Shown in pieces: positions 13,594 through 62,394 of a DNA stretch of 64,000 nt. A program made the position numbers and the translations under genes. The DNA is from Parcubacteria group bacterium GW2011_GWA2_48_9 (GTDB lineage Bacteria > Patescibacteriota > Patescibacteriia > UBA10025), in NCBI GenBank assembly GCA_001003705.1, contig LCPQ01000001.1, positions 58,008 through 122,007 of the forward strand, written 5' to 3'. How positions within the stretch are numbered: position 1 is the first letter of the stretch; the number at the start of each line of letters is the position of its first letter. The notes beneath the pieces were generated by a model, which saw nothing but the letters and a program-made list of their open reading frames with translations, was not told where the DNA came from and did no database searches.

Positions 13594-14663
13594 ATAATAT
13601 CCTTGATAAAGTAATAGATCTCTGCGAGAACGCCAACACCAAAAAGTGTGCCGACCAGTATAATCCACAAGGGCGAGCGTGCTTTTTCCGGCTCGAACTT
13701 TTTCTTAGCCTTGCGATACATTGCGAGGATGAGTAACCCTTCAAATCCAAGGAGAATGCCGCCAATGAGTGAAATAACCCAAATAAAATCGTTGAGGCCA
13801 AAAAAGTACAGTGCAAGTGGCACAACGCAAGCAAGAAGCCATGCGTAGAATTTCCTCACGCCAAAATCGTATCGATAGGTATTTGTGATGCTTAAACCAA
13901 GGGCCAAAAAAGAGGTAAAGGTAGTAATAAATCCAAAGACGTAGCCGAGTGTTATGACACCGTCACCGAGTGATGACGTGAGTCCGGATATTGCCTCGAT
14001 TGAGGTATCGGAGCCCGTGATACCCAGAACGAGAAAAACGAACAGAAGGTATATTGTTAAACTGACGAAAAGACCAGCTACAAGTACTCGCGAAAATACT
14101 CGGCCTGAAACACCGACGATATCGCGAATCTCTGGAATAACCGAGCTGCCCCAAAATGAAAACATGACGGCGCCAAATGGCAATAAAAGATTTTCAGGAT
14201 AAAAAGTGTTTAAATTTGAAAATTCAATTTTCTTCCAACCTGCTATAACAAGCCCTGTGACAATAATAATGAAAATAGCTAGAAAAAAAAGTTCTGTGGA
14301 AGCGATAGATTTCCTTCCTCTGAGAACTAATGTCGCACCAATACTAAAAAAAATGAGGACCCCAAAAATATCGGGTAGTGGGAATAACGTGCTTGAGAAA
14401 AGATCGGACAGAAACCCCCCGCCAACGATAAGGTATGCGAGCAAGCTTCCCGTAAAACCAATAACCACCACGTATGCATATGCACTATGTATGAAGTATA
14501 CGATTCCTCCAAGTACGACGCAGTATACCAACGTAGGAATAAAGCCGACTCGACTGGCAATGTAGGGCAAGCCAAAAATACCTACCCCTATGACCGTACC
14601 GGAAAGCACCGCTAGCCCAAGAAAGAATTTTTTCCATTCCATGAGGTAAGTATACCACCACAA
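13590..14663 (-). CDS. Polytopic membrane transporter, possibly an amino-acid permease
   Basis: 357 aa with about 10 TM segments. The N-terminal …GTVIGVGIFGLPY… resembles amino-acid transporter signatures. Confidence 0.5.
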   Translation of the reverse strand: MWWYTYLMEWKKFFLGLAVLSGTVIGVGIFGLPYIASRVGFIPTLVYCVVLGGIVYFIHSAYAYVVVIGFTGSLLAYLIVGGGFLSDLFSSTLFPLPDIFGVLIFFSIGATLVLRGRKSIASTELFFLAIFIIIVTGLVIAGWKKIEFSNLNTFYPENLLLPFGAVMFSFWGSSVIPEIRDIVGVSGRVFSRVLVAGLFVSLTIYLLFVFLVLGITGSDTSIEAISGLTSSLGDGVITLGYVFGFITTFTSFLALGLSITNTYRYDFGVRKFYAWLLACVVPLALYFFGLNDFIWVISLIGGILLGFEGLLILAMYRKAKKKFEPEKARSPLWIILVGTLFGVGVLAEIYYFIKDII

Positions 14664-14688: not shown

Positions 14689-15848
14689 TTACTCATCCTG
14701 AAGTACCAAGTCCTGTTCCGTGCCAGTTTTAAGCATCAAATCTGATCGGGGGGTAGATGTACTCACCGTTTTTCGGAAGCCGATTCGGTCAGGCGCGTGC
14801 ACAGGGGCAAGACGATGTAAAGTGCCCCAATGCACCGTTTCTTCCCCAAAGCGGTCATTCAAGACATCCATGGCGGCATAGACCGCGTCTTTTCGCGGCT
14901 GTGCCCAAAAACATCCTTGGTGCGATAACGTCCTCAGTCGAAAGACGCCGATGGCGAACGACTGCGCAGTATACGAACCAATCAGGCGTTCCAGGATACG
15001 CCAACCAAGCCGAAATATCTCGTCACCCCCCGTAAGAGAGCGGCTGAGAGTAACGTTTTTCCCATAGTAGCCACCTTCGCGAAGACCGACCGAAACGAAA
15101 AGCCCCTGTGCTTCCAGTCCGCGTGTACGCACATCCCTGCCAGTACGTTCCGCAAGCCGCATGAGTACTGACTGATAAAACCTCCGGTCAGTCGTACGGG
15201 TACGCAAAACATGTGAGTGCCCGATGGATTTCGGCTGTTCGACTGGCGTGGCCAGACGCGCCGGGGCGAGTTCGATACCATTGACATTCGCCCAAAGTTC
15301 ATGTCCTCTGATGCCGAGCAAACGCTTCAAGGCGTGCGGCTCGCACATCATGAGTTCGTCGAGCGTCCGAATGCCCAAAAGATGGAGACGGGCGGCAGTG
15401 CGATCAGCGATGCCCCACGCTTCTATCAGGTCGCGCCCCTTGAGATACCCCAAAAGGTTGTTGCGACTCAAAACCACTATCCCTCCTTTTTCACACGTGT
15501 CAGAACCGAATTTGGCCAGCCATCGAGTCGGCGCGATGCCTATGGAGTTCGTACATCCGAATACTGCCTGATGATAGAAAAGATTTTTTCAGTCGTCGAA
15601 CGGTACTTCGACGGATCGACTTCTACTAATATGATATCTGGGTATAAAAACTTTGCCTCGTCGGCACGACAACCGGTCTTAATGCCCACCGCCTTCGCTT
15701 CCTTCGATGAAGCGAGAATACACCCGTGCGGTGTCATGGTGGCGACAACTCCCAAGGGTTTCCCGCGTAGCGTAGGATTCGCCTGCTGCTCAACGCTGGC
15801 AAAGTACGAATTCATGTCCAGATGCATAATGATGCGCTTCGCTGGCAT
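14689..15848 (-). pseudogene. dinB: DNA polymerase IV (Y-family, DinB) disrupted by an internal deletion of about 130 nt plus a frameshift
   Basis: ORF 15540..15848 encodes DinB residues about 1–100 (…HLDMNSYFASVEQ…). ORF 14689..15477 and its upstream extension encode residues about 145–360 (…GIAPTRWLAKFGSD…YLKGRDLIEAWGIADRTAARL…). The segment holding the catalytic SIDEAxLD motif is absent. Translating both frames across 15530-15590 shows the two halves abut in different frames. Confidence 0.6.
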
Positions 15849-33729: not shown

Positions 33730-35565
33730 ATGTACGCAGAAGTAATACTTTCTCGACGTTTTCCGAAATCAATGGGGGTTTTTGACTACAAAGTTCCTGA
33801 GTCGCTTTTGGGTCGTATCAGAGTGGGACACCTTGTATCAATCCCTTTCAGAAAAAGTGTGGCCGAAGGGGTTGTTGTCCGTCTGAAAGAAAACCCCTTT
33901 CCCGGAGTTTCAATAAAGACACTGACAGGGATCACTGATGATCCTCCACTGTTAACTGACCAGCAACTCCAGTTCGCTCAGTGGATGTCCGACTACTATG
34001 CCGTATCAATCGGCACGGTCATTAAATCAATGATTCCCGGCATCCCGAAGCGTACCCGCGTTCGAGCAATTATGGAATGGCCAAAAATAACGCCAACGAC
34101 ACCAACAAACATTACGCGCAGCGAACAGCCGGTTTTGGTGTGGATCGAAAGCGTAGGGTTGCGACAAGACTGGTATGCGACTTTTTTTAGTACGTTAAAA
34201 AAACAAACATTGGTTGTCCTCCCTGAGGTTGCAAAAGTCCATTTTTTCCTAGCTCTCGTACCCCCAGATCTTAGGAAACATACCGTGGTAGTTCATAGCA
34301 AACTCGGAATAGCAGAATTCTACGATGCGTGGAAAAAAATACGAAACGGGTCAGCGCGGCTCATCGTTGGAACTAAAATGTCGGTGTTCTTGCCATTTTC
34401 TTCGCTTGATAGCATCCTCGTTGATGATGAGCACGACGAAGACCATAAGCAATATGATCAAAATCCACGTTTTGACGTGCGAACGTCGGTTCTAACGCTT
34501 AAAAAACTTTTTTCGTGTGGACTATGGTTTGTTTCGCCAGCTCCGACAGTCGAGCGATACTTTCAGGCCGCTGCGGGACATATGACACTTCAAAAAGAGA
34601 CAAGCAAAGTACGTCCAGCTATCTCAATAGTTGACATGAAGGAGGAGCGGGTAAAAAAGAATTTTTCACTTATATCTGACGCGCTTCATGACACATTGCA
34701 AGCTTCCTTAAGCAAAAAAAGCAGGGTTTTTCTTTTTCTTAATAGACGCGGTGAAGCTTCAACCGTCGTATGTAAAGAATGCGGTCATACGGTCTTTTGT
34801 CCGGATTGTAAGCGCCCTCTCGCCATACATACTCAAAAGCGGCAAACGGAGCTAGTATGCCATGCGTGCAACGCGCGCCATGAACTCATACGATGCGGAC
34901 ACTGCTCGTCAGTATCCTTCAAATACATCGGCGGAGGTACACAGCGCCTAGAAAGAGAGGTTATAAATGCTTTTCCGGGCACAGCGGTATCACGTCTAGA
35001 TGCGGATACTACGCTATATAACGCTACGGCAGAGATTGTCATCGGTACCGAACTCGCGAGAAAAAGGATTGTGCTCACAGAATTCCTGTGTATCGGCGTT
35101 ATTGCGGCGGATATCATGTTTCAAAGACCCGATTTTCGCTCCTCGGAGAAAGCGTTTCAATCGCTTACTGAACTTCTCACAGAATCGTCTCATAGCGCAT
35201 CAATTATCATCCAAAGCTACTCTCCACATCATCCGGCCATCACCCATCTACTATCAAACGACCTGGAAGCTTTTTACAGAAATGAACTTACTGAAAGAAA
35301 GGAACACTTATACCCCCCGTATTCGCAAATTGTAAAACTCATGAATACACATTACAACGACCCCGAAGCATCAATACGACTTATTCAAAAGTTTAAGGCA
35401 GATAAGCTCTCCGCCTATGAACTCCCCCACCAGGGAGGTCAACATAACAGACCTACTGTCATTCTCAAGCTTCCGCTTGAAACCACCATGCGACAATGGA
35501 AGGTCATTGTGAGCCGCATACCTGACACCTGGCTGATAGACCGTGACCCCGTCTCATTGTCGTAG
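33730..35565 (+). CDS. priA: Primosomal protein N' (PriA)-like protein with a degenerate Walker A motif
   Basis: It has a 3'-DNA-binding N-terminal domain, a DExH box (…VDDEHDEDHKQ…) and a Cys4-type zinc ribbon (CKECGHTVFCPDCK…CHACN…CGHC). Where GxTGSGKT(E) is expected the sequence reads …WIESVGLRQDWYAT…. Confidence 0.8.
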   Translation: MYAEVILSRRFPKSMGVFDYKVPESLLGRIRVGHLVSIPFRKSVAEGVVVRLKENPFPGVSIKTLTGITDDPPLLTDQQLQFAQWMSDYYAVSIGTVIKSMIPGIPKRTRVRAIMEWPKITPTTPTNITRSEQPVLVWIESVGLRQDWYATFFSTLKKQTLVVLPEVAKVHFFLALVPPDLRKHTVVVHSKLGIAEFYDAWKKIRNGSARLIVGTKMSVFLPFSSLDSILVDDEHDEDHKQYDQNPRFDVRTSVLTLKKLFSCGLWFVSPAPTVERYFQAAAGHMTLQKETSKVRPAISIVDMKEERVKKNFSLISDALHDTLQASLSKKSRVFLFLNRRGEASTVVCKECGHTVFCPDCKRPLAIHTQKRQTELVCHACNARHELIRCGHCSSVSFKYIGGGTQRLEREVINAFPGTAVSRLDADTTLYNATAEIVIGTELARKRIVLTEFLCIGVIAADIMFQRPDFRSSEKAFQSLTELLTESSHSASIIIQSYSPHHPAITHLLSNDLEAFYRNELTERKEHLYPPYSQIVKLMNTHYNDPEASIRLIQKFKADKLSAYELPHQGGQHNRPTVILKLPLETTMRQWKVIVSRIPDTWLIDRDPVSLS

Positions 35566-35607: not shown

Positions 35608-36903
35608 ATGAGTGTACTCACAGTAACTTACCACCCGAACAGCCTCCTCCGAGCAACATTACTACCCGTGGAACTCGGCGCGCTTCAATCACCAGGAATA
35701 CAAAAAATGATCGATACAATGGTTGAGACGATGTTCGCCAAGAACGGTATTGGTATTGCAGCAAACCAAGTTGGTAAGAATCACCAGATTGCTATCCTTA
35801 ATACGGCGGAAGGTCCGGTGATAATTATTAATCCTCGGATTACGAAACTATCAATCCTGAAGGAGAACGGCGAAGAAGGCTGTCTCTCTGTTCCTGGCCT
35901 TTTCGGCATGGTAAGAAGACACCGGTCACTTACGTTGAGTGCATATGACCGCCACGGAAAATCATTTACCATGAAGGCGCGGGGCCTACTGGCTAGAGTC
36001 ATACAGCATGAAGTTGACCATCTCAATGGTATTCTCTTTCAATCAATTGACGTGGTCGGCGTTTTGACGCAACCAGACAAACCAGCCGGCAGGGGGTACC
36101 ATCTAATTGAGTCCCCTATTAAGAGACTTGCGCGGCGATATAAACTTCCTATCTACCAGCCCTTAACAGTGACCGATCCGTCTAGTATCGAGTTACTATC
36201 GGGACTCTCTCTCGACGTTGTCGTACTCGCTGCGTATGGTGAGTTGATCCCTAAAAAACTCTTGTCATTGCCTCGATGTGGCTGGTTGAACGTGCATGCA
36301 TCACTTTTGCCGAGACTGCGTGGCGCATCCCCCATCCAGCACGCACTTTTGGAGGGATACACAGAAACCGGCATTACCCTGATGAAAATGGTGGAAAAAC
36401 TTGACGCGGGCCCGGTGATCGCCAAATCTGTAATACTAGTTGATAAAGATGATACAGCCGGCTCACTCCATGACAAACTCGCCTTGCTAGGCGCGAAGTG
36501 CATTGAGGAGTATCTCATTGCTTACCTTACTGATCGGCGGCCAATAACCGAACAAGACCATGAGCAAGCGACATATTGCAAAAAAATTCGCAGTAGTGAC
36601 GCCCGTATCGATTGGCACGCATCTGCCGATGAGATTAATAGGCTTGTTCGCGCAATGAATCCAGCGCCTGGCGCCTTTACCCAATTTAATGGTAATCAAG
36701 TTAAGATTTTTGCCATTGAAACTTTTCAACATGAAGTTATTGGGCCTCCAGGAACTGTGGGAGGTGTTGGCGCGCATTTAGTGGTGTCGTCAGGTACTAG
36801 ACCATTACATATTCTTTCGCTTCAACTTCCAGGCAAGAAAAAAGTGACCGGTGCGGAATTCATCAACGGCCATAGGAATATACTCCCTTTTTCATTCGTA
36901 TAG
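35608..36903 (+). CDS. Peptide deformylase – methionyl-tRNA formyltransferase fusion protein
   Basis: The N-terminal about 150 aa carry all three Def motifs (GIGIAANQ, EEGCLSVPG, QHEVDHLNG). The Fmt core follows directly, starting at …DVVGVLTQPDKPAGRG… with …NVHASLLPRLRGASPIQ…. The Def C-terminal helix and the first roughly 27 Fmt residues are missing. Confidence 0.85.
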   Translation: MSVLTVTYHPNSLLRATLLPVELGALQSPGIQKMIDTMVETMFAKNGIGIAANQVGKNHQIAILNTAEGPVIIINPRITKLSILKENGEEGCLSVPGLFGMVRRHRSLTLSAYDRHGKSFTMKARGLLARVIQHEVDHLNGILFQSIDVVGVLTQPDKPAGRGYHLIESPIKRLARRYKLPIYQPLTVTDPSSIELLSGLSLDVVVLAAYGELIPKKLLSLPRCGWLNVHASLLPRLRGASPIQHALLEGYTETGITLMKMVEKLDAGPVIAKSVILVDKDDTAGSLHDKLALLGAKCIEEYLIAYLTDRRPITEQDHEQATYCKKIRSSDARIDWHASADEINRLVRAMNPAPGAFTQFNGNQVKIFAIETFQHEVIGPPGTVGGVGAHLVVSSGTRPLHILSLQLPGKKKVTGAEFINGHRNILPFSFV

Positions 36904-37284: not shown

Positions 37285-38793
37285 CTATTCAACCGTAGTG
37301 GCGCTATGCTTTATGCGCTTTCGAAGCTTTCGGGTAACATCAAAACCAAGATACTTCCCTAGCATCAGACGTGTTACTGCATCAGTAGCAGGAATAGAGC
37401 CAAAAAATATCAACGTGACGGGCAAAAGTGCCCACTGAAATATCATGATAAGGTACCGCCACTTACTTGCTTGTGGCGGTTTTGGTGGTAAAAGTGTCGC
37501 ACCGAGAATTGCAGAAAGAAAAATTCCCAGCATTGCTGCGCTCATGAGCCAGGAGAGGATATTCGGCGCATTCTGAGCTATTGCATCAACAGTTTTTTGC
37601 TGTTGTGCGATCCAAAGCGGGAGCCGTCCTACAATAAAGATGACAATGGGTGCGGTAGCCCATGAGTACACTCCTTCGAGCTGGTTGAAAACGTAACGAA
37701 ACTTTACGACAAATGGCATACGTGCATTTATGCCAAAATTCCAAATCATCCATGGAAAGTTTTCGACACCATACGCCCATCTGCGCTGCTGTTTGTACTG
37801 GCTCTTTACGGTTTGCCAAAACGTTCTGCCACTCACGATATCCATTGAAAGAGGGATGTAGAGTGGCTCGATCCGATAATCGCCATCATAGTGCATCAGG
37901 CCCTGCAGCCCAATGCGTGAATCTTCTGTAACTATGTCTCGTTGCCAAAACCCGACATCAACCAGGGCCTGAAAGCTCATGCTATGTGATGAAAAGGTGT
38001 ACATCCTTTCAGGACGTAGCTGTTCTGACATGAGCCAAAACGTCGTACTGTATGAAACAACGCGACTGAACGCGTGCGTTTCCCACACGTTGTTGTTAAA
38101 AAGCGGCACAGGCTGAAAGCTAGCATGCGTCGGATTTGGATGAGTAAAATAACGGTACGTAAGATATGAAAAATACTGCGAGTGGACAACGGTGTCAGCA
38201 TCAAAAGATGAAACAATCACTTTATCGTAATGCACACCCAACGTGTCAATAAGCTTCTTCGCCTCATTGCCAGCCCATGCAATATTTGACCCCTTTCCCG
38301 GCAAGTCGCCAGGGGCGTTTTGCGGGTGCACAGTTATAAGAAAATCAAAAAAGACTTTTCCAAATTCTGACCGCAATGTGTTAGCAATACGGAGAAAATC
38401 ATTCGCATCTTTTTCTTCGCCAGCAAGGACCACGATAAACCGATCTAAAGGAAATGACGATCTTGTGAGCCCGTTAAAAGTGTCACGTAGCACTTCATAG
38501 GGTTCTTTATATGTCGGTATGAAGATTAAATGATATACCGTGCGCCAATCAGTCAATTGTTCACACTTCTCTAGCCAGTCAACAGACGATTCTTTCCTGA
38601 AACGGCTATACCCCAAATACACATACACCATCATGTAACTGATCCTCACGAGCCAGTATAGATCAAATACAATGATAAAATATATAGCCCAAATTGGGCG
38701 GAAGACAGACAGTCCGAGCGCAATCGCAAACGTAGCCCAAACCATGAGGCCGGGAACCATCTCAAGAAGACGATATTTTCGGTAATCAGTCAT
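37285..38793 (-). CDS. Processive family-2 glycosyltransferase (cellulose/hyaluronan-synthase-like membrane GT2)
   Basis: 502 aa with TM segments flanking a GT2 domain. It carries D, DxD-like (…SFDADTV…) and Q(Q)xRW (…QQRRWAYG…) motifs. Confidence 0.8.
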   Translation of the reverse strand: MTDYRKYRLLEMVPGLMVWATFAIALGLSVFRPIWAIYFIIVFDLYWLVRISYMMVYVYLGYSRFRKESSVDWLEKCEQLTDWRTVYHLIFIPTYKEPYEVLRDTFNGLTRSSFPLDRFIVVLAGEEKDANDFLRIANTLRSEFGKVFFDFLITVHPQNAPGDLPGKGSNIAWAGNEAKKLIDTLGVHYDKVIVSSFDADTVVHSQYFSYLTYRYFTHPNPTHASFQPVPLFNNNVWETHAFSRVVSYSTTFWLMSEQLRPERMYTFSSHSMSFQALVDVGFWQRDIVTEDSRIGLQGLMHYDGDYRIEPLYIPLSMDIVSGRTFWQTVKSQYKQQRRWAYGVENFPWMIWNFGINARMPFVVKFRYVFNQLEGVYSWATAPIVIFIVGRLPLWIAQQQKTVDAIAQNAPNILSWLMSAAMLGIFLSAILGATLLPPKPPQASKWRYLIMIFQWALLPVTLIFFGSIPATDAVTRLMLGKYLGFDVTRKLRKRIKHSATTVE

Positions 38794-43154: not shown

Positions 43155-44004
43155 TCAATATTTTTCTACTTTGATGTGCATCCACTTCTTTCCCTGCGGA
43201 AGTGCCCGTAGAATCAGCCCATGCTTGGCGCCAATTTGTTGAACAACTGACGCCGAATTGATCGATGCCAGTCTGAGCGCGTAGTCAATGTCGCCCGGAC
43301 GTTTAATCAAACCTGCAACAAACCCGGAGCCGTATGCATCACCAGCACCCGTCGTATCGACTGCCTTCACCGGGTTGATCACTACCTTTCTCACTGTCAT
43401 GCCATCGCATACCCATGAACCTTTTTTACCTTCAGTGATCACGGCAATGCCGTCACATACGCGATCCATTCCTCTCACAAAGTGCAACGTGGGTTCTATA
43501 CTTCCTTGCCATAGACAGAGCTTTCTTTAACAGCGGAATGTTCCCTGCTAGCGAAGAGATATAAAACCACCGTGTGCGGGCTTTCGACCAAGAAACGTCG
43601 TTAGGCTGAAGTGTATGACTGACACCACGGTATACGAGAATAGTGCGTTCACCGCTAGAGGTCAAAAAAATAGTCGAATACCCAGTCCGGCCTTCCGGAT
43701 CTGTAATGACAAAAGGGAGATATATGCCATACGACATTAAGAGACGTTTAACTGACTCGCCAGCGGGATCTAAGCCGACTCTCGTTACGACAGCTGTACG
43801 CAGGCCTTGGCGTGAAAAGGTTACAGCAGTATTCGTCGCTCCGCCCCCAACTTCAAAGAGCACATCGTCGAGCTCAACTTTTGTCCCAAACGCGAAACAC
43901 TCCGCCTGCCCAGTAATAAAGCGTTTATCGCGGATAATGCGGAATCGTTTGCTTACCAGGTAGACATCCTGAGTTGCCTGGCCGATAGAAATTACGTCGT
44001 ACAT
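43155..44004 (-). pseudogene. PfkB-family carbohydrate kinase (ribokinase-like) split by a frameshift, possibly with a small internal deletion
   Basis: ORF 43453..44004 carries the N-terminal GG motif (…FEVGGGATNTAV…). ORF 43155..43487 carries the C-terminal DTTGAGDAY motif. The two are in different frames, overlapping by about 35 nt. Confidence 0.55.
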
Positions 44005-44005: not shown

Positions 44006-44986
44006 TTAGCGTTTCCTTCTCAATACAGTATACACCGCTTTAGTGATGTCAGCAGCAGCAAGATGGTATTTTTTCATAAGCTCAGAAGGTTTTCCAGACT
44101 CACCAAAAGTATCCCCTACTCCTATACGTTGAATTGGCACGGGTAGTGCCTCACTCAGGAGCTCCGCTACCGCAGCACCCATCCCTCCAGTAATTTGATG
44201 TTCTTCGGCAGTTACTATCGCACCTGTCTTCTTGGCAGAATGTATAATTGTTCGCCGATCAGCTGGTTTGATGGTGTGATTATTTACTACTTCCACGTGA
44301 ATTCCTTTTGTACGCAAGTTTTTGGCCACCATAAGCGCTTCATACACTAGCGCGCCGCAGGCTATGATAGTAACATCGGTTCCAGGATGATAGATTTCTG
44401 CCTTGCCGATCGCAAAGGGTGTTCTGGGCGTGGTAACCACCGGCACCGCTTCACGCCCCATGCGTATATACACCGGTCCTTTGACCTTCACAGCGGCCAA
44501 TACGGCCTTCTCGGCCTCTAGCGCGTCTACAGGAGCAATAACCGTCATGTTTGGTAGTACGCGCATTATTGCAATGTCTTCGAGTGCTTGATGCGTTGCA
44601 CCGTCAGGCCCCACTGAGATCCCCGCATGTGCCCCAATGATTTTTACATTAGCTTTACTGTAACAGATTGATACGCGAATTTGATCCCAATTCCTCCCTG
44701 GGGAGAAAACTGCATATGAAACAATAAACGGAATTTTTCCTGCTAGTGCAAGACCGGCACTGATTCCCGCCATATTTTGCTCGGCCACACCTATTTCGAA
44801 GAATCTTTCTGGGAACGAATTCCGAAATACGAGCGATCTTGTCGATTCAGTTAAATCGGCACACAAAACCACCACGTTCCGGTTTTTCTTTCCAGCCTTT
44901 ACAACGCCCGTACCGTACCCATCACGCATCGGCACCAATTTTACTCCCCGTGAAAATACACTTGGTGATAGATATAACTTATTCAT
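44006..44986 (-). CDS. tkt: Transketolase, C-terminal (pyrimidine-binding) subunit
   Basis: 326 aa with the Pyr and C-terminal transketolase domains (…GVAEQNMAGISAGLAL…). Confidence 0.85.
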   Translation of the reverse strand: MNKLYLSPSVFSRGVKLVPMRDGYGTGVVKAGKKNRNVVVLCADLTESTRSLVFRNSFPERFFEIGVAEQNMAGISAGLALAGKIPFIVSYAVFSPGRNWDQIRVSICYSKANVKIIGAHAGISVGPDGATHQALEDIAIMRVLPNMTVIAPVDALEAEKAVLAAVKVKGPVYIRMGREAVPVVTTPRTPFAIGKAEIYHPGTDVTIIACGALVYEALMVAKNLRTKGIHVEVVNNHTIKPADRRTIIHSAKKTGAIVTAEEHQITGGMGAAVAELLSEALPVPIQRIGVGDTFGESGKPSELMKKYHLAAADITKAVYTVLRRKR

Positions 44987-45715
44987 GCTCCGAAGTGATT
45001 TTACCTTTGAGCGTCCTCAATGAATTTAGATCCTTCATTGCGCGTACTGCTTCTTGACCTTCCGGCGGTTTCCCATGCCAGTGAAAGTCAAACTCCATAA
45101 AACCAACACCTTTGCCTGGAATTGTATGACAGATAATTGCTACCGGTTTATCCCAAATTGCACGCGCCGTATGGCAGGCATCAATGATCTGTTGGATATT
45201 GTGACCATCTACCTCAAGTACGTGCCAATTGAATGACTCGTATTTTTTTCTGAGGGGCTCGATAGGCATGATGTCCTCCACTGGCCCATCTATTTGGATG
45301 CGAGTCTGCCCGCAAGCGCCATGCCAATAGATTGTGAGAGTCCCTGACCTAGCGGGCCGCTAGTATTTTCAATTCCTGGCAATGAACGATTGTGTGGATG
45401 ACCTTGGAGGCGCGAGTTAATTTTTCGAAGTGTATGGAGCTCTTTTACTGGAAAATAGCCTGCGTGCGCAAGCACTGCATACAGCACCGGAGCGAGATGG
45501 CCTGCGGAAAGTACCAGGCGATCTCGGTCGGGCCACTCGGGGCGCCGAGTATCATACCGCAAAACGCAAAAATAGAGTGCAGTAAATACGTCCGCCATAT
45601 CGAGCGGCCCGGCAGAGTGACCGGAGCCGGCGCTAACGAGCATTTTGATAATATCTTTCCGTATGTGGTTCGCTATCGACTCCAGTTCTGCGATTGAATA
45701 CGAACGTTTCTTCAT
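44979..45715 (-). pseudogene. tkt: Transketolase N-terminal (TPP-binding) subunit disrupted by an internal deletion of about 150 nt plus a frameshift
   Basis: ORF 45290..45715 ends …GPLGQGLSQSIGMALAGRLASK*. The next frame resumes at …IQIDGPVEDIMPIEPLRKKYESFNWHV…. The intervening GDGE…N TPP-binding segment (about 45–50 aa) is missing, and the halves are in different frames. Confidence 0.6.
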
Positions 45716-53874: not shown

Positions 53875-53946
53875 AAGGGGGCGCCACCTATCGGTGACAC
53901 CCCCACGTACGCGTGCAAGGTTGTAGTAAGATTACTTCTTCAGCTA

Positions 53947-54738
53947 CTACTTTGCCAGCTCAGCATCAATAACCGAGGCAAACTGTTCGTACGGTACCGC
54001 TCCTGAGACGAGCGTCCCATTGACGAAGGTCGCGGGTGTTCCCTGTACGCCGTATTGGGTTCCTTGAGTTGTGTCGTCCTGTACTTTTGACTGGTATTTG
54101 CCTGAGTCGAGACAACCATCAAACTGGCTCTGGTTCAACCCGAGGCCCCCGGCAGCACTCTTAAAGTTTTCTATGCTTAACGTGCCGGCCGCATTCATCT
54201 CAAAAAGCTTATCATGCATCTCCCAAAACTTACCTTGCTCTGCCGCGCATTCAGAGGCCTCTGCAGCCTTCTGCGCCAAGGGATGAAGTGATGTCAAGGG
54301 AAAGTGCCGATAGATAAGCCGTACATCATCTCCATATGTGTCGAGAATCCGCTGCGTAGTTGGATTAACCTGTTCACAGAATGGGCACTGAAAATCTGAA
54401 TATTCCACTAATGTGACTTTCGCGTTTTCACCGCCGCGAATATAATCATCGTCGCGAATAGGAATGTCGACCACTGTTGGAGCAGCTGTGGGCGCAGCGG
54501 CAGTCGGGGCAGTATTTGTTGGGGCAACAGTGTTTGTAGTCGTCCCTGCAACTTTCCCGGTGTTTGAATTCTTAGAACCTACGCTGCCTCCCGTCCGAAG
54601 CATGGAGAAAGTCAGCATAAAACCTATGAAACTGATTGCGGCTATCCCTGAAACAAGTCCGAAGTAGAAGGTCATTTTCGATGAACCCTGGAATAAACCT
54701 TGTTCCGATTCTTGTGGCTGCGTACGTTCATGGTCCAT
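53947..54738 (-). CDS. DsbA-like thioredoxin-fold oxidoreductase with N-terminal TM anchor and a Thr/Ala-rich linker
   Basis: CxxC active site …DFQCPFCEQ… in a DsbA-type domain. It has its own promoter carrying a TACTAC-N5-GTAGTA operator. Confidence 0.8.
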   Translation of the reverse strand: MDHERTQPQESEQGLFQGSSKMTFYFGLVSGIAAISFIGFMLTFSMLRTGGSVGSKNSNTGKVAGTTTNTVAPTNTAPTAAAPTAAPTVVDIPIRDDDYIRGGENAKVTLVEYSDFQCPFCEQVNPTTQRILDTYGDDVRLIYRHFPLTSLHPLAQKAAEASECAAEQGKFWEMHDKLFEMNAAGTLSIENFKSAAGGLGLNQSQFDGCLDSGKYQSKVQDDTTQGTQYGVQGTPATFVNGTLVSGAVPYEQFASVIDAELAK

Positions 54739-54787
54739 ATTGGCATGCCTGAGGTTAATGGGTAAGATTAGGTAAATACTAAATATC

Positions 54788-54823
54788 TACTACACATTGT
54801 AGTAGAACTGTAGGATCAGTCAA
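54788..54823 (-). promoter_or_regulatory. Promoter of the DsbA-like gene with overlapping BlaI/CopY-type operator
   Basis: Minus strand reads TTGACT, a 16-nt spacer, then TACAAT. The perfect inverted repeat TACTAC-acatt-GTAGTA at 54788-54804 overlaps the -10. The core TACAnnnTGTA resembles BlaI/MecI/CopY boxes. Confidence 0.55.
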
Positions 54824-54845
54824 GAAAGTTATACACACCCTAAAA

Positions 54846-57053
54846 TTATTTCCATCTCTTAAGAAGAAGGGAGTTTGCGACCACGGATACACTTGAGAGA
54901 GCCATAGCCGCACCGGCAATCTCAGGACGGAGTTGCCATCCAAAAATAGGGTAGAAAATTCCGGCAGCAATGGGAATCCCGGCAATATTGTAGATGAGCG
55001 CCCAAAAAAGGTTCTGAACTATCTTTCGGAAGGTTCTTCGTGAAAGTGTGATGGCATGGACAACGTCGCGAAGATCGTTCTTGACCAGCACGATTTGCCC
55101 GGTCTCGAGGGCCACATCTGTCCCCGACCCAATGGCGATCCCAAGATCTGCTGTCGCAAGCGCCGGAGCGTCGTTGATGCCATCGCCGACGAAAGCAACT
55201 CTTTTTCCCCGTCCCTGCAGCTTCTTCACTTCATTTGCTTTGTCTTCCGGGAGGACTTCCGCGAGAATATAGCTGATGCCGATTTGTCCGGCTACCGCAT
55301 TGGCGGTGCGCTGGTTATCTCCTGTAATCATGGCAGTATGAATACCGAGCTTTTCAAGACTGCTGATCGCATCCGAAGCGTTGTCTTTCACCGTGTCGGC
55401 CACAGCAATCAATCCTGCCGCAGCATTTCCGATCCCGATGATCATGACGGTCTTGCCTTCATGCTCGAGACGTTCGAGGTCAGCATCAAGCTGCATAATA
55501 TCGATATGCTCTCGATCGAAGAGTCGCCGGTTTCCTAGCATCACCCTCTGGCCGTCAATGTTGCCGACTACCCCATGGCCCGGTACTGCAGTAAAGTACT
55601 CGACCTCAGATAGGGTAAGCGCATCCTGTGCGGCGCGTGTAACGATCGCTTCTGCCAAAGGATGTTCTGATCGCTTCTCGACTGATGCAGCATACATCAA
55701 TAGTGTGTGTTCATCTACCCCAGATGCCGTCACAATATTAGTCACGACTGGCTTGCCATTCGTCAATGTACCGGTCTTGTCGAACATAACAATATCGATC
55801 CTCCGCGCAGCTTCAAGCGCCTCGCCTCCTTTAATTAAAATACCCTTGGAGGCGCCTATGCCCGTGCCGGTGATGATTGCAGTGGGTGTAGCAAGGCCAA
55901 GGGCACAGGGGCAGGCGATAACCAAAACTGCGACAAATGCGAGCAAGCTTGGGACAAAAGGTTGGAGCGCAATAAAGTACCACGCAATAAACGTGATAAG
56001 TGCAATAGCAATGACGGCGGGAACAAAGTACGCCGAAACTCTGTCAGCAAACCGTTGAATGGGCGCTTTAGACGCTTGAGCATCTTCGACAAGTTTAATG
56101 ATGCCTGCAAGTAACGTGTCTTTACCAACTTTTGTGGCCTTAAAAATGAATGTTCCGTGTTTGTTGATCGTCCCGCCTATGACAACAGATTCAACGATCT
56201 TTTCGGTGGGGATGCTCTCACCTGTTACCATTGATTCATCAACTGATGAGGCTCCTTCTTCGACGACGCCGTCAACGGGGATTTTTGTACCAGGCTTGAC
56301 GCGAATTCGGTCACCGACGACAACATCGTTCAGGGAAATCTCAATCTCGCTGTTCCCACGAACCACGATAGCTGTCTTCGGGGCCAAGCCCATCAGCTTT
56401 TTGATCGCTTCTCCTGTTTTGCCCTTTGCCCGCGCTTCGAGCCATTTACCCAACAGAACAAACGCGATGAGAATACTGCCGATCTCAAAGTATACTTCTC
56501 CCGCCACAAGGCCGAGGACTACGATGATCGAATACACATACGCAGTTGATGTACCAATCGCAATGAGAGAATCCATGTTAGCCGTTCGGGCTTTCAGAGC
56601 GCCCCAGAAACCCCGATAAAATTGCCATCCCGCCCAAAACTGTATTGGCGTAGCAAAGAGAAACTGCAGCCATTCGCGATACGGAACGCTTTCAATAACT
56701 GGAAAAACTCGCATGCCCATGCTCAATACAAGGACAGGAAGTGAGAGCGCCACGCTTATGGCGAATTTACTTTTCAACTTTCGTATTTCATTCCTCCGGC
56801 TTTCTTCCTCACTTTGGCGAGATTCGTCGTTTTCCTTCAGCTCTTTCGCCCCATAGCCTACGGCTTCGACTCCTTTTACAAGGGCGCTGATGTTGGTAAT
56901 GGAAGAATCATACACCACATGCGCTCGTTCCGTACCGTAATTCACTGAGGTTTGCTGGACACCACTGACACGTTTCAACCCACGTTCAATTAGCTGAGCG
57001 CAGCTTGCGCAATGCATTCCAGATACTGACAATAGTACGTTCTGATCGGCCAT
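54846..57053 (-). CDS. copA: Copper-translocating P1B-type ATPase
   Basis: N-terminal HMA domain (…GMHCASCAQLIE…), TM CPC motif (…IACPCALGLATP…), DKTGTLT phosphorylation site and GDGINDAP hinge. Confidence 0.95.
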   Translation of the reverse strand: MADQNVLLSVSGMHCASCAQLIERGLKRVSGVQQTSVNYGTERAHVVYDSSITNISALVKGVEAVGYGAKELKENDESRQSEEESRRNEIRKLKSKFAISVALSLPVLVLSMGMRVFPVIESVPYREWLQFLFATPIQFWAGWQFYRGFWGALKARTANMDSLIAIGTSTAYVYSIIVVLGLVAGEVYFEIGSILIAFVLLGKWLEARAKGKTGEAIKKLMGLAPKTAIVVRGNSEIEISLNDVVVGDRIRVKPGTKIPVDGVVEEGASSVDESMVTGESIPTEKIVESVVIGGTINKHGTFIFKATKVGKDTLLAGIIKLVEDAQASKAPIQRFADRVSAYFVPAVIAIALITFIAWYFIALQPFVPSLLAFVAVLVIACPCALGLATPTAIITGTGIGASKGILIKGGEALEAARRIDIVMFDKTGTLTNGKPVVTNIVTASGVDEHTLLMYAASVEKRSEHPLAEAIVTRAAQDALTLSEVEYFTAVPGHGVVGNIDGQRVMLGNRRLFDREHIDIMQLDADLERLEHEGKTVMIIGIGNAAAGLIAVADTVKDNASDAISSLEKLGIHTAMITGDNQRTANAVAGQIGISYILAEVLPEDKANEVKKLQGRGKRVAFVGDGINDAPALATADLGIAIGSGTDVALETGQIVLVKNDLRDVVHAITLSRRTFRKIVQNLFWALIYNIAGIPIAAGIFYPIFGWQLRPEIAGAAMALSSVSVVANSLLLKRWK

Positions 57054-57077
57054 AAAGAATATGCAGTAAGCTAATCG

Positions 57078-57449
57078 TTATTCGACCACAATCTTCCCCT
57101 GATACATCCCCATATCGCATGTAAAAGGGATTTCCCCTGTTTCGGTAGGAGTAAACTCAACATCAGTCATGCCAAATGCCTTGAGATCCTTCCGAATCTT
57201 CATCCCCTCAAAGGTAACATACCGCGAACAATCCGCATGTTCTTGGCGGTTAAAGTGAAGGCGTACGGGAATCCCCGCTTTTACCGTAATGATGTTTGGA
57301 TCGTATGCCCCTTTTACTAAGATGGTGATTTCTTGTACACCGCTATTCATTTCCGCTTTTTCCTGCTTCCTTTGGAACCGGAGCCAAAGAAAAAAAATTC
57401 CGAAAATACCCGCTGTAAGGACGATGCCGATAACTTGACGTGAATCCAT
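57078..57449 (-). CDS. Small membrane-anchored cupredoxin-like protein
   Basis: 123 aa with an N-terminal TM segment. The C-terminal domain ends …FTCDMGMYQGKIVVE, a Cupredoxin_1-like CxxGMxxGxI motif. It is a paralogue of the next gene. Confidence 0.55.
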   Translation of the reverse strand: MDSRQVIGIVLTAGIFGIFFLWLRFQRKQEKAEMNSGVQEITILVKGAYDPNIITVKAGIPVRLHFNRQEHADCSRYVTFEGMKIRKDLKAFGMTDVEFTPTETGEIPFTCDMGMYQGKIVVE

Positions 57450-57492
57450 GGCCGTCTTATGAAACTATAATCAACCTTCGCATGTTCAGGTG

Positions 57493-57930
57493 TTAAATGA
57501 CATTAATCGTACCCCGAAACATCCCCATAGAGCATTGAAAAACAATGGAACCCTTCTCCTGTGCAACGAATTCAACCGTATCTTCTCCTGTTGTTTGTAG
57601 ATTCTTAGTTATTCCAAGCTTTGGAATTGTGAACGACCGCGCGCATCCGTAGGTATTGTTTGTCACTAATTTCATTCGTACCCTCTGTCCTTGCTTAACA
57701 GTCACTTGGGAGGGAGAATATCCATTTGAAGCAACGTTGATGGTTACAGAGTCGGAAACGACGTCAACATCTTGATCTGTATCCCCCTGGTCTACGGTGG
57801 CATCTGCATTCAGGCCGCTCCCTAACCTCCACGCTATTCCGCCGCCGATGACGATGACCAGGCCGACAATAATCATTATATTAGTAAAAGACTTACTATC
57901 ATCCGACTGTTTGCTATTTTGTCGTTTCAT
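57493..57930 (-). CDS. Small membrane-anchored cupredoxin-like protein (paralogue)
   Basis: 145 aa with an N-terminal TM segment, ending …FQCSMGMFRGTINVI. It has the same architecture as 57078..57449. Confidence 0.55.
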   Translation of the reverse strand: MKRQNSKQSDDSKSFTNIMIIVGLVIVIGGGIAWRLGSGLNADATVDQGDTDQDVDVVSDSVTINVASNGYSPSQVTVKQGQRVRMKLVTNNTYGCARSFTIPKLGITKNLQTTGEDTVEFVAQEKGSIVFQCSMGMFRGTINVI

Positions 57931-57952
57931 ACTATAAGTACAAAATTAATTA

Positions 57953-58708
57953 TTACTTACTAAACCAGGATTCCGGCTGAAAATCATTGAGCGCACGGTT
58001 GATATACACATTTGTCAAATACAGTTGATTCGTTATCATGAGAACTCCAATCAGCATCAAGAGTGCTGCGCTGACCATCGTGACCATTCTATGGTGCTTT
58101 TTAATAAACTGAGTGGCTTCGATTATTCTGCTGTAAAAAAGGGTAAACGTGAGAAGGGCAACTGCAAGACCAAGCGAGTAGAGGCTGAAATACGCGATAC
58201 CGCTGCCAATATTCCCTGTCTGACTTACCAGCGCTACGACACCGAGGAGAAAGGGACCGATGCATGGAGTCCAGACAAAAGCGAACGTGGCACCAAAAAA
58301 CAGGTTTCCGATAAACGTGCGCTGGTGTGGCTTCCAGTGAATCCGAGCTTCGCCGTTCATCCAGCGGAGAAATGATAGCGGATAAACAAAATTGAGTCCA
58401 AGGAGAAATACTACAGCCCCAGCAACTACTGCTATGATCTCCCGTGCGCTACCAATCGCCTCCGCAGCAACACCGATAAGCGCACCCAATGGAATAAAGA
58501 TAAGAAAAAATCCGAGAACGAAACCAGTGGCATTTGAAAGAATTTGGCGGCGGAAAGTATGACTGTCATCGGTAGTTCGCAATTCCTCGGTACTCAACCC
58601 AGTAATGGTGGTGAGATACGCGGGGAGCAAAACGACGACGCAGGGAGAAATGATTGAAAGAACACCGTAGAAAAACGAAAAGAAAAATGGTATAGTGCTA
58701 ATATCCAT
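57953..58708 (-). CDS. ccdA: CcdA/DsbD-family thiol-disulfide transporter (membrane electron-transfer protein)
   Basis: 251 aa with 6+ TM segments and conserved Cys in TM1 (…LSIISPCVVVLLPAYL…) and TM4 (…WTPCIGPFL…). Confidence 0.8.
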   Translation of the reverse strand: MDISTIPFFFSFFYGVLSIISPCVVVLLPAYLTTITGLSTEELRTTDDSHTFRRQILSNATGFVLGFFLIFIPLGALIGVAAEAIGSAREIIAVVAGAVVFLLGLNFVYPLSFLRWMNGEARIHWKPHQRTFIGNLFFGATFAFVWTPCIGPFLLGVVALVSQTGNIGSGIAYFSLYSLGLAVALLTFTLFYSRIIEATQFIKKHHRMVTMVSAALLMLIGVLMITNQLYLTNVYINRALNDFQPESWFSK

Positions 58709-58711
58709 GCG

Positions 58712-58960
58712 CTAGGAAACTAGTTCACGTGCCTCATATCCTGTCTTTCTGATTTGGTCAAAAATCTTCTCTCTCGTAATCTTTCCGGGGTCGAAGACAA
58801 TCTCGCCAGTGTTGTGCTGTTCGTTGATTTTCACCACTACGCCAATATCCTCGAGGTCCATGGTTATGAGCCGGCTACAAGATGCACAATGCATACCTGA
58901 AATAGTAATGTTCATTGTCTCCATATCATCTATTGCAAAAACACCGATCTCGGTCCCCAA
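58712..58960 (-). CDS. copZ: Heavy-metal-associated copper chaperone (CopZ-like)
   Basis: 82 aa with GMHCASC metal-binding motif and an HMA ferredoxin-like fold. Confidence 0.8.
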   Translation of the reverse strand: MGTEIGVFAIDDMETMNITISGMHCASCSRLITMDLEDIGVVVKINEQHNTGEIVFDPGKITREKIFDQIRKTGYEARELVS

Positions 58961-59883
58961 ACCATAAGGAGTATCCCGGCAAGCACGACAGCAAAATTCA
59001 GTAAAGTATACGGCCAGAATCCATACGGGCGTACTTCCTGGCGCCCGTGTTTATGTTCCTTATATACCAGATAACTCATCCCAGCCAAAATCATCAGCGT
59101 CGCGACAAAAAAGATAGGCAGAAATATGGTGAGACGATCGGAGAACATCATCACCGCTGTCATTGCCCCCATAGTACCCCCCATCAAACCAGCCATCATA
59201 CCTTCCATGATACCCATAATTCCACAGCAGGCACCTACCCATCCGCCTACGCCCATACCTATGATCATGCCAAAAACCGATCCAACAAACATGCCATTAG
59301 TAGTTCCAATGACAATACCAAGGAGTAATCCGGAAATCATTCCGATAGTCATACCGATCATCATACCTGTCATACAAGACACGGCTCCGCGAAAAGCGCG
59401 CAAGTGCCTGATTGCCCCGCCGGTAGCCACCACGGCAATTATGAGATAACCGATATACTGACCGTAGTTTCCCCAGAATGATTCAACATTCCAGAAGAAA
59501 ACGAAGTAAGTAAAATATGCGAGAGCTGCGACAACCACAAGTGTCCCCAGAGTGGATTTAATCACATTCTTTTCAAATGTGTACGCGGCTGGATCTTTGA
59601 AAAAAGATTGTTTGACGCGTCGCACTCGCTCGGACAATGATTCCCCACTGTCCCGGTCTTGCACAGACGTCTCAGACGCACTATAACCGACATTGGCGAT
59701 AGCTTCACGTACCTTTGAGAAGGGTACAATTGCCGGGTCATAACGAAGCTCAACGCGCTCACTTGTATACCGAATATCCTCCACCTCAACACCTATCCGC
59801 CCGAGAGCTTTTGTAATAGTTTTCTCACATGCATCGCAATGCATCCCCTGTATCCAAATGTCTTTGACGATTGTTTCGGTCAT
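58930..59883 (-). CDS. HMA-domain protein fused to a Met/Gly-rich polytopic membrane domain
   Basis: N-terminal HMA domain (…IQGMHCDACEKTI…), then several TM helices packed with MxxxM/GxxxG patterns (…MIGMTIGMISGLLLGIVIG…FGMIIGMGVGGWVGACCGIMGIMEGMMAGLMGG…). Confidence 0.6.
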   Translation of the reverse strand: MTETIVKDIWIQGMHCDACEKTITKALGRIGVEVEDIRYTSERVELRYDPAIVPFSKVREAIANVGYSASETSVQDRDSGESLSERVRRVKQSFFKDPAAYTFEKNVIKSTLGTLVVVAALAYFTYFVFFWNVESFWGNYGQYIGYLIIAVVATGGAIRHLRAFRGAVSCMTGMMIGMTIGMISGLLLGIVIGTTNGMFVGSVFGMIIGMGVGGWVGACCGIMGIMEGMMAGLMGGTMGAMTAVMMFSDRLTIFLPIFFVATLMILAGMSYLVYKEHKHGRQEVRPYGFWPYTLLNFAVVLAGILLMVWGPRSVFLQ

Positions 59884-59894
59884 AGTTATTAAGT

Positions 59895-61317: not shown

Positions 61318-61336
61318 AACTAGGGTGGATAATCTC

Positions 61337-61373
61337 TACTACGAAATGTAGTATCTCTGAATAAAGGTGTCAA
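61337..61373 (-). promoter_or_regulatory. Promoter of the copY-like operon with overlapping BlaI/CopY-type operator
   Basis: Minus strand reads TTGACA, a 17-nt spacer, then TACATT. The inverted repeat TACTAC-gaaat-GTAGTA at 61337-61353 overlaps the -10. Arrangement and arms are the same as at 54788-54804. Confidence 0.55.
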
Positions 61374-61425
61374 GAGGTGCTTATCGATTTGGCTCAAGGG
61401 CGTCCTGCCTGTCGGCAGACAGGGA

Positions 61426-62387: not shown

Positions 62388-62394
62388 TAAGCTG

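What the first reader, a model, noticed from the sequence alone, without database searches (positions are those of the whole stretch)
35608..36903. Single-polypeptide Def–Fmt fusion (peptide deformylase plus methionyl-tRNA formyltransferase)
def and fmt are normally adjacent but separate genes. Here one 431-aa ORF has a complete Def catalytic core (all three metal-ligand motifs) running straight into the Fmt core at …HEVDHLNGILF-QS-IDVVGVLTQPDKPAGRG…. The Def C-terminal helix and the first roughly 27 residues of Fmt (the first Rossmann strand) are missing. A bifunctional enzyme for formylation and deformylation would be unusual. Alternatively this is an in-frame deletion that damages the Fmt N-domain.
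Basis: seen in the sequence. Interest (0 to 1): 0.55.

Follow-up and report, generated by a model that had tools for sequence, protein, structure and literature searches.

The report
Def–Fmt "fusion" from assembly deletion
The single Def–Fmt gene exists in this deposited sequence, but it arises because 121 bases between two normally separate, overlapping genes are missing from this one metagenome assembly, most likely through an assembly error, so it is not a new bifunctional enzyme.

Summary
The 431-aa ORF (35608..36903, +) is there exactly as described: a Def core with all three metal motifs runs straight into Fmt lacking its first 27 residues. It is GenBank KKW02404.1 from MAG GW2011_GWA2_48_9 (Ca. 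Kerfeldbacteria, Rifle aquifer). Ten other contigs of the same population, from several independent assemblies and including zero-SNP contigs, carry an extra 121 nt at 36037|36038. That block restores a 163-aa def and a 314-aa fmt overlapping by 20 nt, and one further scaffold has an N-gap at that spot. A more distant Patescibacteria single-cell genome has the same two-gene layout. The window also lacks four other private blocks (87, 127, 134, 130 nt); three of them split conserved genes and the 87-nt one shortens a permease gene in frame. Another MAG from the same IDBA-UD pipeline has its own private missing blocks elsewhere, and MEGAHIT and Logan contigs have none. All three junctions checked show no microhomology, and block edges coincide with contig ends in other assemblies. 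Best reading: a collapsed local assembly error (about 0.87). A real minor deletion allele remains possible (about 0.1), and a selected functional fusion is very unlikely. Complete Def–Fmt fusions do exist and are already published (Exiguobacterium, functional), but they keep the full Fmt N-terminus.

The parts
35608..36903 (+). Chimeric 431-aa ORF (GenBank KKW02404.1, annotated 'Peptide deformylase', MAG GW2011_GWA2_48_9)
35608..36037 (+). def-derived part: Def residues 1-143 with motifs GIGIAANQ, EGCLS and QHEVDH. The native last 20 residues (CIDRISRVTQGTMPNGKKKV) are absent.
36037..36038 (.). Junction where 121 nt present in all other assemblies are missing. The block holds the def 3' end and stop, the 20-nt def/fmt overlap and fmt codons 1-26. 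Placement is unambiguous with zero microhomology, and hybrid codon T|TT gives F144.
36038..36903 (+). fmt-derived part: Fmt residues 28-314 plus stop, identical to allele P0122. It keeps NVHASLLPRLRG and LDAGP (the Asn/His/Asp catalytic residues) and the C-terminal domain, but lacks beta1 (KVLFAGTPDF) and alpha1 (AVPILSALVR).
33730..35565 (+). priA (611 aa), upstream synteny anchor shared with all sister assemblies and with the Patescibacteria SAG
37285..38793 (-). GT2 glycosyltransferase (502 aa), downstream synteny anchor
14463..14464 (.). Second private gap: 87 nt missing relative to MHKE01000017.1. It shortens a Trp_Tyr_perm permease from 379 aa (the window's mechanically listed ORF is 357 aa).
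15552..15553 (.). Third private gap: 127 nt missing relative to MHKE01000017.1. It frameshifts a DinB-type polymerase (IMS), 428 aa reduced to a 262-aa ORF.
43155..44004 (-). PfkB-family kinase split into 183-aa and 110-aa ORFs by a fourth private gap (134 nt missing at 43480|43481). GenBank annotates KKW02413.1 as 'nonfunctional'; sister assemblies have 327 aa.
44979..45715 (-). Transketolase N-terminal subunit split into 141-aa and 100-aa ORFs by a fifth private gap (130 nt missing at 45300|45301). Sister assemblies have 264-288 aa.

Best explanation
The organism (a Candidatus Kerfeldbacteria population from the Rifle aquifer) has the ordinary arrangement: a 163-aa def and a 314-aa fmt that overlap by 20 nt in different frames. 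In the deposited assembly of MAG GW2011_GWA2_48_9, 121 nt spanning the def 3' end and the fmt 5' end are missing. Because 121 = 3n+1, the loss puts fmt codon 28 onward into the def frame, and a gene caller sees one 431-aa ORF. The loss is most likely a local assembly or scaffolding error: two contig ends were joined with the intervening roughly read-length piece dropped. So the fusion protein is probably never made. If it were made, the Def part could still be catalytic, because its C-terminal tail is dispensable for catalysis. The Fmt part would lack the central beta1 strand and alpha1 helix of its Rossmann-type N-domain and would probably not fold. What is shown: the deletion itself, its privacy to one assembly, and the four companion gaps. 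What is inferred: that reads do not support the junction, and the folding consequence.
For: (1) The exact 431-aa protein is KKW02404.1 from GW2011_GWA2_48_9. Its 90% cluster otherwise holds only a separate Def (163 aa, 8 contigs) and Fmt (314 aa, 12-16 contigs) and their fragments, none carrying the junction. (2) The DNA alignment shows identity apart from 2 SNPs and one 121-nt gap. Of the 11 other contigs, 10 contain the block and one (MHKE01) has an N-gap there. They comprise three NCBI MAGs, ENA MEGAHIT re-assemblies of PRJNA268031 runs and other ENA assemblies. Contigs with zero SNPs to the window (L007, L008) carry the block, so the same haplotype is intact elsewhere. (3) The window has four further private gaps of similar size (87, 127, 134, 130 nt). 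Three of them frameshift conserved genes, although the sequences are otherwise about 99.9% identical. (4) A second MAG from the same laboratory pipeline (MHKE01000017.1) has its own private gaps (157, 144, 28, 11 nt) at other sites plus N-runs, one of them inside this very def/fmt junction. MEGAHIT and Logan contigs show none. (5) Zero microhomology at the three junctions checked (36037|36038, 43480|43481, 45300|45301). (6) Block edges coincide with contig ends in independent assemblies: L007 ends on the last base before the 134-nt block, and four contigs start 8-75 nt before the 121-nt block. [quoted passage not shown] (8) A more distant Patescibacteria single-cell genome keeps priA-def-fmt-GT2 with the same 20-nt overlap and conserved Def C-terminal and Fmt N-terminal residues, so the missing residues are under selection. 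(9) The junction is absent from JGI metagenome contigs.
Against: The reads were not available, so lack of read support for the junction is inferred and not shown. Exact coincidence of block edges with forks or dead ends in independent assemblies could also arise if a real deletion allele co-exists in the population. The JGI junction scan has little power, because the intact edge was found only once. Five errors in 64 kb is a higher density than the 13 per 1.13 Mb cited by the pipeline authors for one genome. The 87- and 127-nt gaps rest on a single comparator. A GATC sits 6-8 nt inside the left edge of three blocks and has no explanation.
Confidence: 0.87

Rival explanations
1. A real 121-nt deletion allele exists in a sub-population sampled in GWA2. 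It would be a recent loss-of-function lesion that inactivates fmt and trims def, tolerated because formylation is not strictly essential and def is dispensable once fmt is lost.
For: The ORF is in the deposited record. Independent assemblies fork or end exactly at block edges, as expected if two alleles co-exist. That fmt/def double loss is viable in E. coli rests on established knowledge (the delta-def-fmt strain of Mazel et al. 1994, used in PMC12690207).
Against: It would require five independent deletions of about 90-135 nt in 64 kb, three of them frameshifting conserved genes of a streamlined genome (a PfkB-family kinase, transketolase, a DinB-type polymerase), on a background with almost no SNPs. 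The same kind of private gap occurs at other sites in another MAG from the same pipeline. No other assembly or protein fragment carries the junction. Zero-SNP contigs are intact.
Confidence: 0.1
2. A selected, functional bifunctional Def-Fmt enzyme in which the Def HEXXH helix region or another element compensates for the missing Fmt beta1/alpha1.
For: All catalytic motifs of both enzymes are present. Functional Def-Fmt fusions exist in nature (PMC12690207; P0010/P0035 and P0002/P0005). The AF2 model drew residues 127-143 as a strand plus helix resembling Fmt beta1-alpha1.
Against: The fusion is not conserved in any relative. Every real fusion examined keeps Formyl_trans_N from profile position 2-9 and a Def C-terminal linker, whereas this one starts at 27. 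The same residues cannot serve both as the Def metal-binding helix and as the Fmt core. The AF2 feature follows a MAFFT misalignment and has pLDDT of about 50. The companion gaps in the window are plainly destructive.
Confidence: 0.02

Closest known systems
Canonical bacterial def-fmt operon (two adjacent, often overlapping genes; E. coli def-fmt, Mazel et al. 1994)
   Same: Same two enzymes in the same order, downstream of priA. The intact alleles of this population and the Patescibacteria SAG show the two-gene layout with a 20-nt overlap.
   Different: In the window the overlap region, the def stop and fmt codons 1-26 are absent, so the two read as one ORF.
Exiguobacterium Def-Fmt fusion protein (Mol Biol Evol 2025, PMC12690207)
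   Same: A single polypeptide with Def at the N-terminus and Fmt at the C-terminus.
   Different: [quoted passage not shown] The window's ORF is private to one assembly, lacks 27 Fmt N-terminal and 20 Def C-terminal residues, and has no second def in the 64 kb.
Full-length Def-Fmt fusions in metagenomes (e.g. P0010/P0035, P0002/P0005/P0007, P0129-P0137)
   Same: Pfam architecture Pep_deformylase + Formyl_trans_N + Formyl_trans_C. About 35 of the 150 top-scoring 50%-identity representatives are two-stretch proteins of 412-522 aa, the pattern expected of Def+Fmt calls; eight checked with Pfam are confirmed fusions, and one other (P0128) is an Fmt-only duplication.
   Different: They are 445-522 aa, keep a linker after the Def H-motif and the complete Fmt beta1 motif (R/K-hh-F-x-G-T-x-x-F), and their junctions are conserved across 49-62% identical pairs.
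Local assembly errors in IDBA-UD metagenome scaffolds (Chen et al. 2020, Genome Res, PMC7111523; ra2.py)
   Same: Short stretches of consensus that differ from the true sequence, private to one assembly, and corrupting protein-coding genes in public databases. There are several per scaffold here, and different ones in a second MAG from the same pipeline.
   Different: The defining test, no read perfectly supporting the region, could not be run. The density here (5 in 64 kb) is higher than the published example.
Indel-derived def-fmt fusions in other metagenome assemblies (P0004, P0008)
   Same: Look-alike chimeras. P0008 (435 aa) joins a complete Def directly to Fmt lacking about 40 N-terminal residues. 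P0004 has a frameshifted Def tail running into a full Fmt.
   Different: A different, Clostridia-like lineage. Their origin was not investigated.

Membership tests
Peptide deformylase (PF01327 / TIGR00079) | Three metal/active-site motifs: G-h-G-h-A-A-x-Q, E-G-C-x-S, Q-H-E-x-D-H | tested here: met
   GIGIAANQ, EGCLS and QHEVDH can be read in the translation. Pfam 136.9 bits, TIGR00079 129.6 bits, both above cut-off.
Peptide deformylase (PF01327 / TIGR00079) | Complete domain including the native C-terminal segment | tested here: not met
   Profile coverage ends at 146 of 156. The 20 native C-terminal residues present in P0123 are missing. This segment is dispensable for catalysis but implicated in ribosome docking (PMC3660681).
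Methionyl-tRNA formyltransferase (TIGR00460; PF00551 + PF02911) | Score above the curated cut-off, with both the catalytic N-domain core and the C-terminal domain | tested here: met
   TIGR00460 253.2 bits against a 201.5 cut-off. Formyl_trans_C covers 1-100 of 100. NVHASLLPRLRG and LDAGP are present.
Methionyl-tRNA formyltransferase (TIGR00460; PF00551 + PF02911) | Intact Rossmann-type N-domain starting with beta1 (hhFxGTPxF) and alpha1 | tested here: not met
   Formyl_trans_N starts at profile position 27 of 181 here, against position 4 in the intact allele and 2-9 in the real fusions examined. True homology to E. coli Fmt begins near residue 25.
Natural bifunctional Def-Fmt fusion (Exiguobacterium type) | The fusion is conserved among related genomes | tested here: not met
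   Ten other contigs of the same population and a Patescibacteria SAG have separate def and fmt.
Natural bifunctional Def-Fmt fusion (Exiguobacterium type) | Both enzyme domains are complete | tested here: not met
Natural bifunctional Def-Fmt fusion (Exiguobacterium type) | Both activities are demonstrated (complementation of delta-def-fmt) | not testable with these tools
   This needs a wet-lab experiment. It has been done only for Exiguobacterium alkaliphilum.
Local assembly error (IDBA-UD-type) | The sequence variant is private to one assembly of a population that is otherwise identical | tested here: met
Local assembly error (IDBA-UD-type) | Multiple similar lesions in the same scaffold, and different ones in other scaffolds from the same pipeline | tested here: met
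   Five gaps in the window. MHKE01 has four private gaps plus N-runs. MEGAHIT and Logan contigs have none.
Local assembly error (IDBA-UD-type) | No read perfectly supports the junction | not testable with these tools
A junction-peptide search was uninformative.

The most novel reading that the evidence does not exclude
The 121-nt loss is a real allele in the GWA2 sub-population. That would mean a CPR bacterium caught in the act of abandoning initiator-tRNA formylation, with fmt inactivated and def fused and trimmed, and with several other recent gene-killing deletions of about 130 nt that would imply an unusual deletion mechanism, possibly linked to GATC sites.
Probability: 0.08. Interest if true: 0.4.

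Novelty: not a real feature. Interest (0 to 1): 0.06.

Why it matters
If the fusion were real it would be a truncated bifunctional formylation/deformylation enzyme. The evidence says it is an assembly artefact, and complete, functional Def–Fmt fusions are already published, so there is little biological news. The practical value is a caution. GenBank KKW02404.1 and neighbouring entries of MAG GW2011_GWA2_48_9 (for example KKW02412.1 and KKW02413.1) are corrupted by dropped segments of about 90–135 nt. Domain-fusion ("Rosetta stone") inferences drawn from uncurated metagenome assemblies should be checked against sister assemblies before being believed.

Tried and rejected
(1) Three look-ups returned 'not on record' only because I trimmed the wrong end of minus-strand ORFs. 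They carry no information, and redid one of them correctly.
(2) An AlphaFold2 model of the chimera had mean pLDDT 85, but the Def part was weak. Residues 127-143 were drawn as strand plus short helix because MAFFT had aligned Fmt N-termini onto the Def HEXXH helix. I did not use the model to judge function.
(3) Microhomology-mediated deletion between the Def '...DHL...' and Fmt alpha1 regions, an idea suggested by the phmmer alignment running into the Def helix, was rejected because the junction has zero microhomology.
(4) A GATC motif lies 6-8 nt inside the left edge of three blocks. The raw probability is 1e-6 to 1e-4, but it falls to about 0.004-0.016 after allowing for post-hoc choice, and the motif is absent from that position in the 87- and 127-nt blocks. 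It is left unexplained.
(5) The junction scan of JGI metagenome contigs was negative, but the control for the intact edge hit only one contig, so its power is low.
(6) A junction-spanning 62-aa peptide search found nothing, not even the known Fmt cluster, so it is uninformative.
(7) The genome-contig scan did not return the source species. It returned only distant relatives, most with adjacent def and fmt.
(8) P0128, which looked like a reversed Fmt-Def fusion, is an Fmt-only partial duplication.

Full report
**Observation.** The ORF at 35608..36903 (+) is real and encodes 431 aa. Pfam places Pep_deformylase at residues 5-144 (profile 3-146 of 156), Formyl_trans_N at 146-298 (profile 27-176 of 181) and Formyl_trans_C at 326-423. 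NCBIfam's fmt equivalog TIGR00460 scores 253 bits (cut-off 201.5) but starts at profile position 13, and pept_deformyl TIGR00079 scores 130 bits. Against solved structures, true homology to E. coli Fmt (1FMT) starts near residue 25, so strand beta1 and helix alpha1 of the N-domain are absent. The three Def motifs (GIGIAANQ, EGCLS, QHEVDH) and the Fmt catalytic stretches (NVHASLLPRLRG, LDAGP) are all present.

**Source.** An exact-sequence look-up identifies the protein as GenBank KKW02404.1, 'Peptide deformylase', from MAG 'Parcubacteria group bacterium GW2011_GWA2_48_9', on a 148,973-bp contig. The same 90%-identity cluster otherwise holds a separate 163-aa Def (KKW16612.1, HCJ52455.1; 8 contigs), separate 314-aa Fmt sequences (KKW16613.1, OGY82818.1, HCJ52454.1; 12-16 contigs) and fragments of each. 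None of them carries the junction. One Fmt allele (P0122) is identical to the window's Fmt part residue for residue, yet it has the full N-terminus MEKRKYKVLFAGTPDFAVPILSALVRI.

**What differs at the DNA level.** The Candidatus Kerfeldbacteria contig DPTA01000015.1 has the same gene order (priA 611 aa, def, fmt, a 79-aa ORF, GT2 502 aa, NUDIX and so on) with def (163 aa) and fmt (314 aa) overlapping by 20 nt in different frames.
- Over 1.36 kb the window and that contig differ by 2 SNPs and one 121-nt gap in the window between 36037 and 36038.
- The missing block holds the def 3' end and stop, the overlap, and fmt codons 1-26.
- Because 121 = 3n+1, its loss brings fmt into the def frame, creating hybrid codon T|TT (F144).
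- An in-frame outcome has a prior of one in three, so it is not evidence of selection.

**Is the gap private?** Yes. Of the 11 other contigs of this population, 10 contain the 121-nt block and one (MHKE01) has an N-run there. They comprise:
- NCBI MAGs GCA_003527115, GCA_001004025 (GWC2_49_9) and GCA_001818285;
- ENA MEGAHIT re-assemblies of SRR1658466 and SRR1658344 from PRJNA268031;
- the ANAN16 scaffolds and other ENA assemblies.

Contigs L007 and L008 have zero SNPs to the window over 6-7 kb and still carry the block, so the very same haplotype is intact elsewhere. A more distant relative, Patescibacteria single-cell genome AM-311-L03, has priA-def-fmt-GT2 with the same 20-nt overlap. Its Def tail (LCIDRMTRITQGKMPDGRKEV) and Fmt head (MDEKKYNIIFFGTPEF...) are conserved. 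Two overlapping genes are therefore the ancestral, selected state.

**The gap is one of a series.** Base-by-base comparison of the whole window with sister contigs shows four more window-private gaps:

| Position | Missing | Effect |
|---|---|---|
| 14463\|14464 | 87 nt | shortens a permease from 379 aa |
| 15552\|15553 | 127 nt | DinB-type polymerase, 428 aa reduced to a 262-aa ORF |
| 43480\|43481 | 134 nt | PfkB kinase, 327 aa split into 183 + 110 aa |
| 45300\|45301 | 130 nt | transketolase N subunit split into 141 + 100 aa |

- The deposited record itself annotates the kinase fragments as KKW02413.1 'nonfunctional' and KKW02412.1, so these lesions belong to the GenBank assembly.
- Apart from these gaps the sequences are about 99.9% identical.
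- The other MAG produced by the same laboratory pipeline (MHKE01000017.1) has its own private gaps relative to the window and everyone else: 157 nt at window 46227, 144 nt at 53513, and 28 and 11 nt. It also has N-runs, one of them inside this def/fmt junction. MEGAHIT and Logan contigs have none.
- The three junctions checked (121-, 134- and 130-nt gaps) are unambiguous and have zero microhomology.
- Block edges coincide with contig ends in independent assemblies. L007 ends on the last base before the 134-nt block and starts 8 nt before the 121-nt block. L006, L010 and L011 start 36-75 nt before the 121-nt block. L006 carries a 36-nt divergent tip that ends exactly at that block's left edge.

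**Best explanation (about 0.87).** Contigs broke at difficult spots and were joined with the intervening, roughly read-length piece dropped. The Def-Fmt ORF is a by-product and the organism has ordinary def and fmt genes. Shown: the deletion, its privacy to one assembly, and the companion lesions. Inferred: that no reads support the junction.

**Rivals.**
- A real minor deletion allele (about 0.1) would explain the forks at block edges. It would require five gene-altering deletions of about 90-135 nt in 64 kb, three of them frameshifting conserved genes, on a background almost free of SNPs. It also leaves unexplained why a second MAG from the same pipeline shows the same kind of lesion at different sites.
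- A selected functional fusion (about 0.02) is contradicted by the lack of conservation and by the missing Fmt core elements.

**If the protein were made.** The Def C-terminal segment is dispensable for catalysis but helps ribosome docking (Meinnel et al. 1996 and Bingel-Erlenmeyer et al. 2008, as cited in PMC3660681), so deformylase activity is plausible. Loss of the central beta1 strand and alpha1 helix of the Rossmann-type Fmt N-domain should prevent folding; this is an inference from the known Fmt fold. An AF2 model (pLDDT 85) was not decisive. It borrowed Def residues 127-143 as a pseudo beta1-alpha1 at pLDDT of about 50, following a MAFFT misalignment.

**Comparison with what is known.** Complete Def-Fmt fusions are real and already described. 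In Exiguobacterium, def and fmt are fused in all four reference genomes, and the synthesised gene complements E. coli delta-def-fmt (PMC12690207).

In an exhaustive HMMER scan of 1.84 billion representatives, about 35 of the top 150 hits are two-stretch proteins of 412-522 aa. Eight of the nine highest-scoring ones (P0129-P0134, P0136, P0137) are confirmed by Pfam as Def+Fmt fusions with Formyl_trans_N starting at profile position 2-9; the ninth, P0128, is an Fmt-only duplication. The pairs P0010/P0035 (62% identity) and P0002/P0005 (49%) keep identical junction architecture with a linker and the full Fmt beta1 motif. The window's ORF fails these criteria.

Other indel-derived look-alikes exist in metagenome data (P0004, P0008). 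No second def or fmt lies in the window.

**Checks with low power.** The junction is absent from JGI metagenome contigs, but the intact edge was found only once. A junction-peptide search was uninformative.

**Verdict.** This is not a real biological feature but a database artefact, so interest is low. The decisive test is read mapping across the five junctions.

Noticed in passing
window 14463|14464, 15552|15553, 43480|43481, 45300|45301: Four further window-private missing blocks (87, 127, 134, 130 nt). They shorten a permease and split a DinB-type polymerase, a PfkB kinase (GenBank KKW02413.1 'nonfunctional' plus KKW02412.1) and the transketolase N subunit. Sister assemblies are intact.
   Followed up: yes
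L004/L012/L019 (MHKE01000017.1), aligned to window 43318, 44525, 46227, 53513 and 36005-36037: The RIFCSP Kerfeldbacteria MAG has its own private missing blocks (28, 11, 157, 144 nt) and N-runs, including 20 Ns inside the def 3' end. The lesions are of the same kind but at different places.
   Followed up: partly
L002 9964, 17529, 19484 (inside the blocks missing at window 36037|36038, 43480|43481, 45300|45301): GATC lies 6, 7 and 8 nt inside the left edge of three of the five missing blocks, and the 144-nt block missing from MHKE01 starts CCGATC. After post-hoc correction p is about 0.004-0.016. The 87- and 127-nt blocks do not show it. There is no explanation.
   Followed up: partly
L006 1-36; L007 both ends; L010 and L011 starts; L022 end (its 170-nt terminal tail, adjoining window 45301): Independent contigs start or end at or just before the block edges. 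L006 has a 36-nt tip about 70% identical to def that ends exactly at the left edge of the 121-nt block. This suggests a co-existing divergent strain or a reproducible coverage break at these sites.
   Followed up: partly
L009 5708-6100: The last roughly 390 nt of ENA contig k141_2707061 do not match the window or its sister contigs, so the contig end may be chimeric or a strain-specific rearrangement.
   Followed up: no
P0004 and P0008: Two near-identical Clostridia-like 'Def-Fmt fusions' look indel-derived. P0004 has a frameshifted Def tail before a full Fmt. P0008 joins a full Def to Fmt lacking about 40 N-terminal residues. This shows that such chimeras recur in metagenome gene calls.
   Followed up: no
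P0010/P0035, P0002/P0005/P0007, P0129-P0137: These are complete Def-Fmt fusions whose junctions are conserved across 49-62% identical pairs. None carries a source name or an NCBI/UniRef record in the tables returned, so the architecture appears wider than the published Exiguobacterium case.
   Followed up: partly
window ~53900-62400 (minus strand): A metal and redox gene cluster, judging from the Pfam hits on the identical sister contigs: P-type ATPase with an HMA domain (735 aa), two cupredoxin-domain proteins, a DsbD-like protein, HMA proteins, a BlaR1-like M56 peptidase with a Penicillinase_R repressor, VKOR, an ArsR-type HTH/YHS protein and a DsbA-like thioredoxin.
   Followed up: no
Genome-contig collection: The scan with exact peptide words from this protein did not return the source species or any Kerfeldbacteria genome, only relatives at 29-44% identity. 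The species may be absent from, or masked in, that collection.
   Followed up: no
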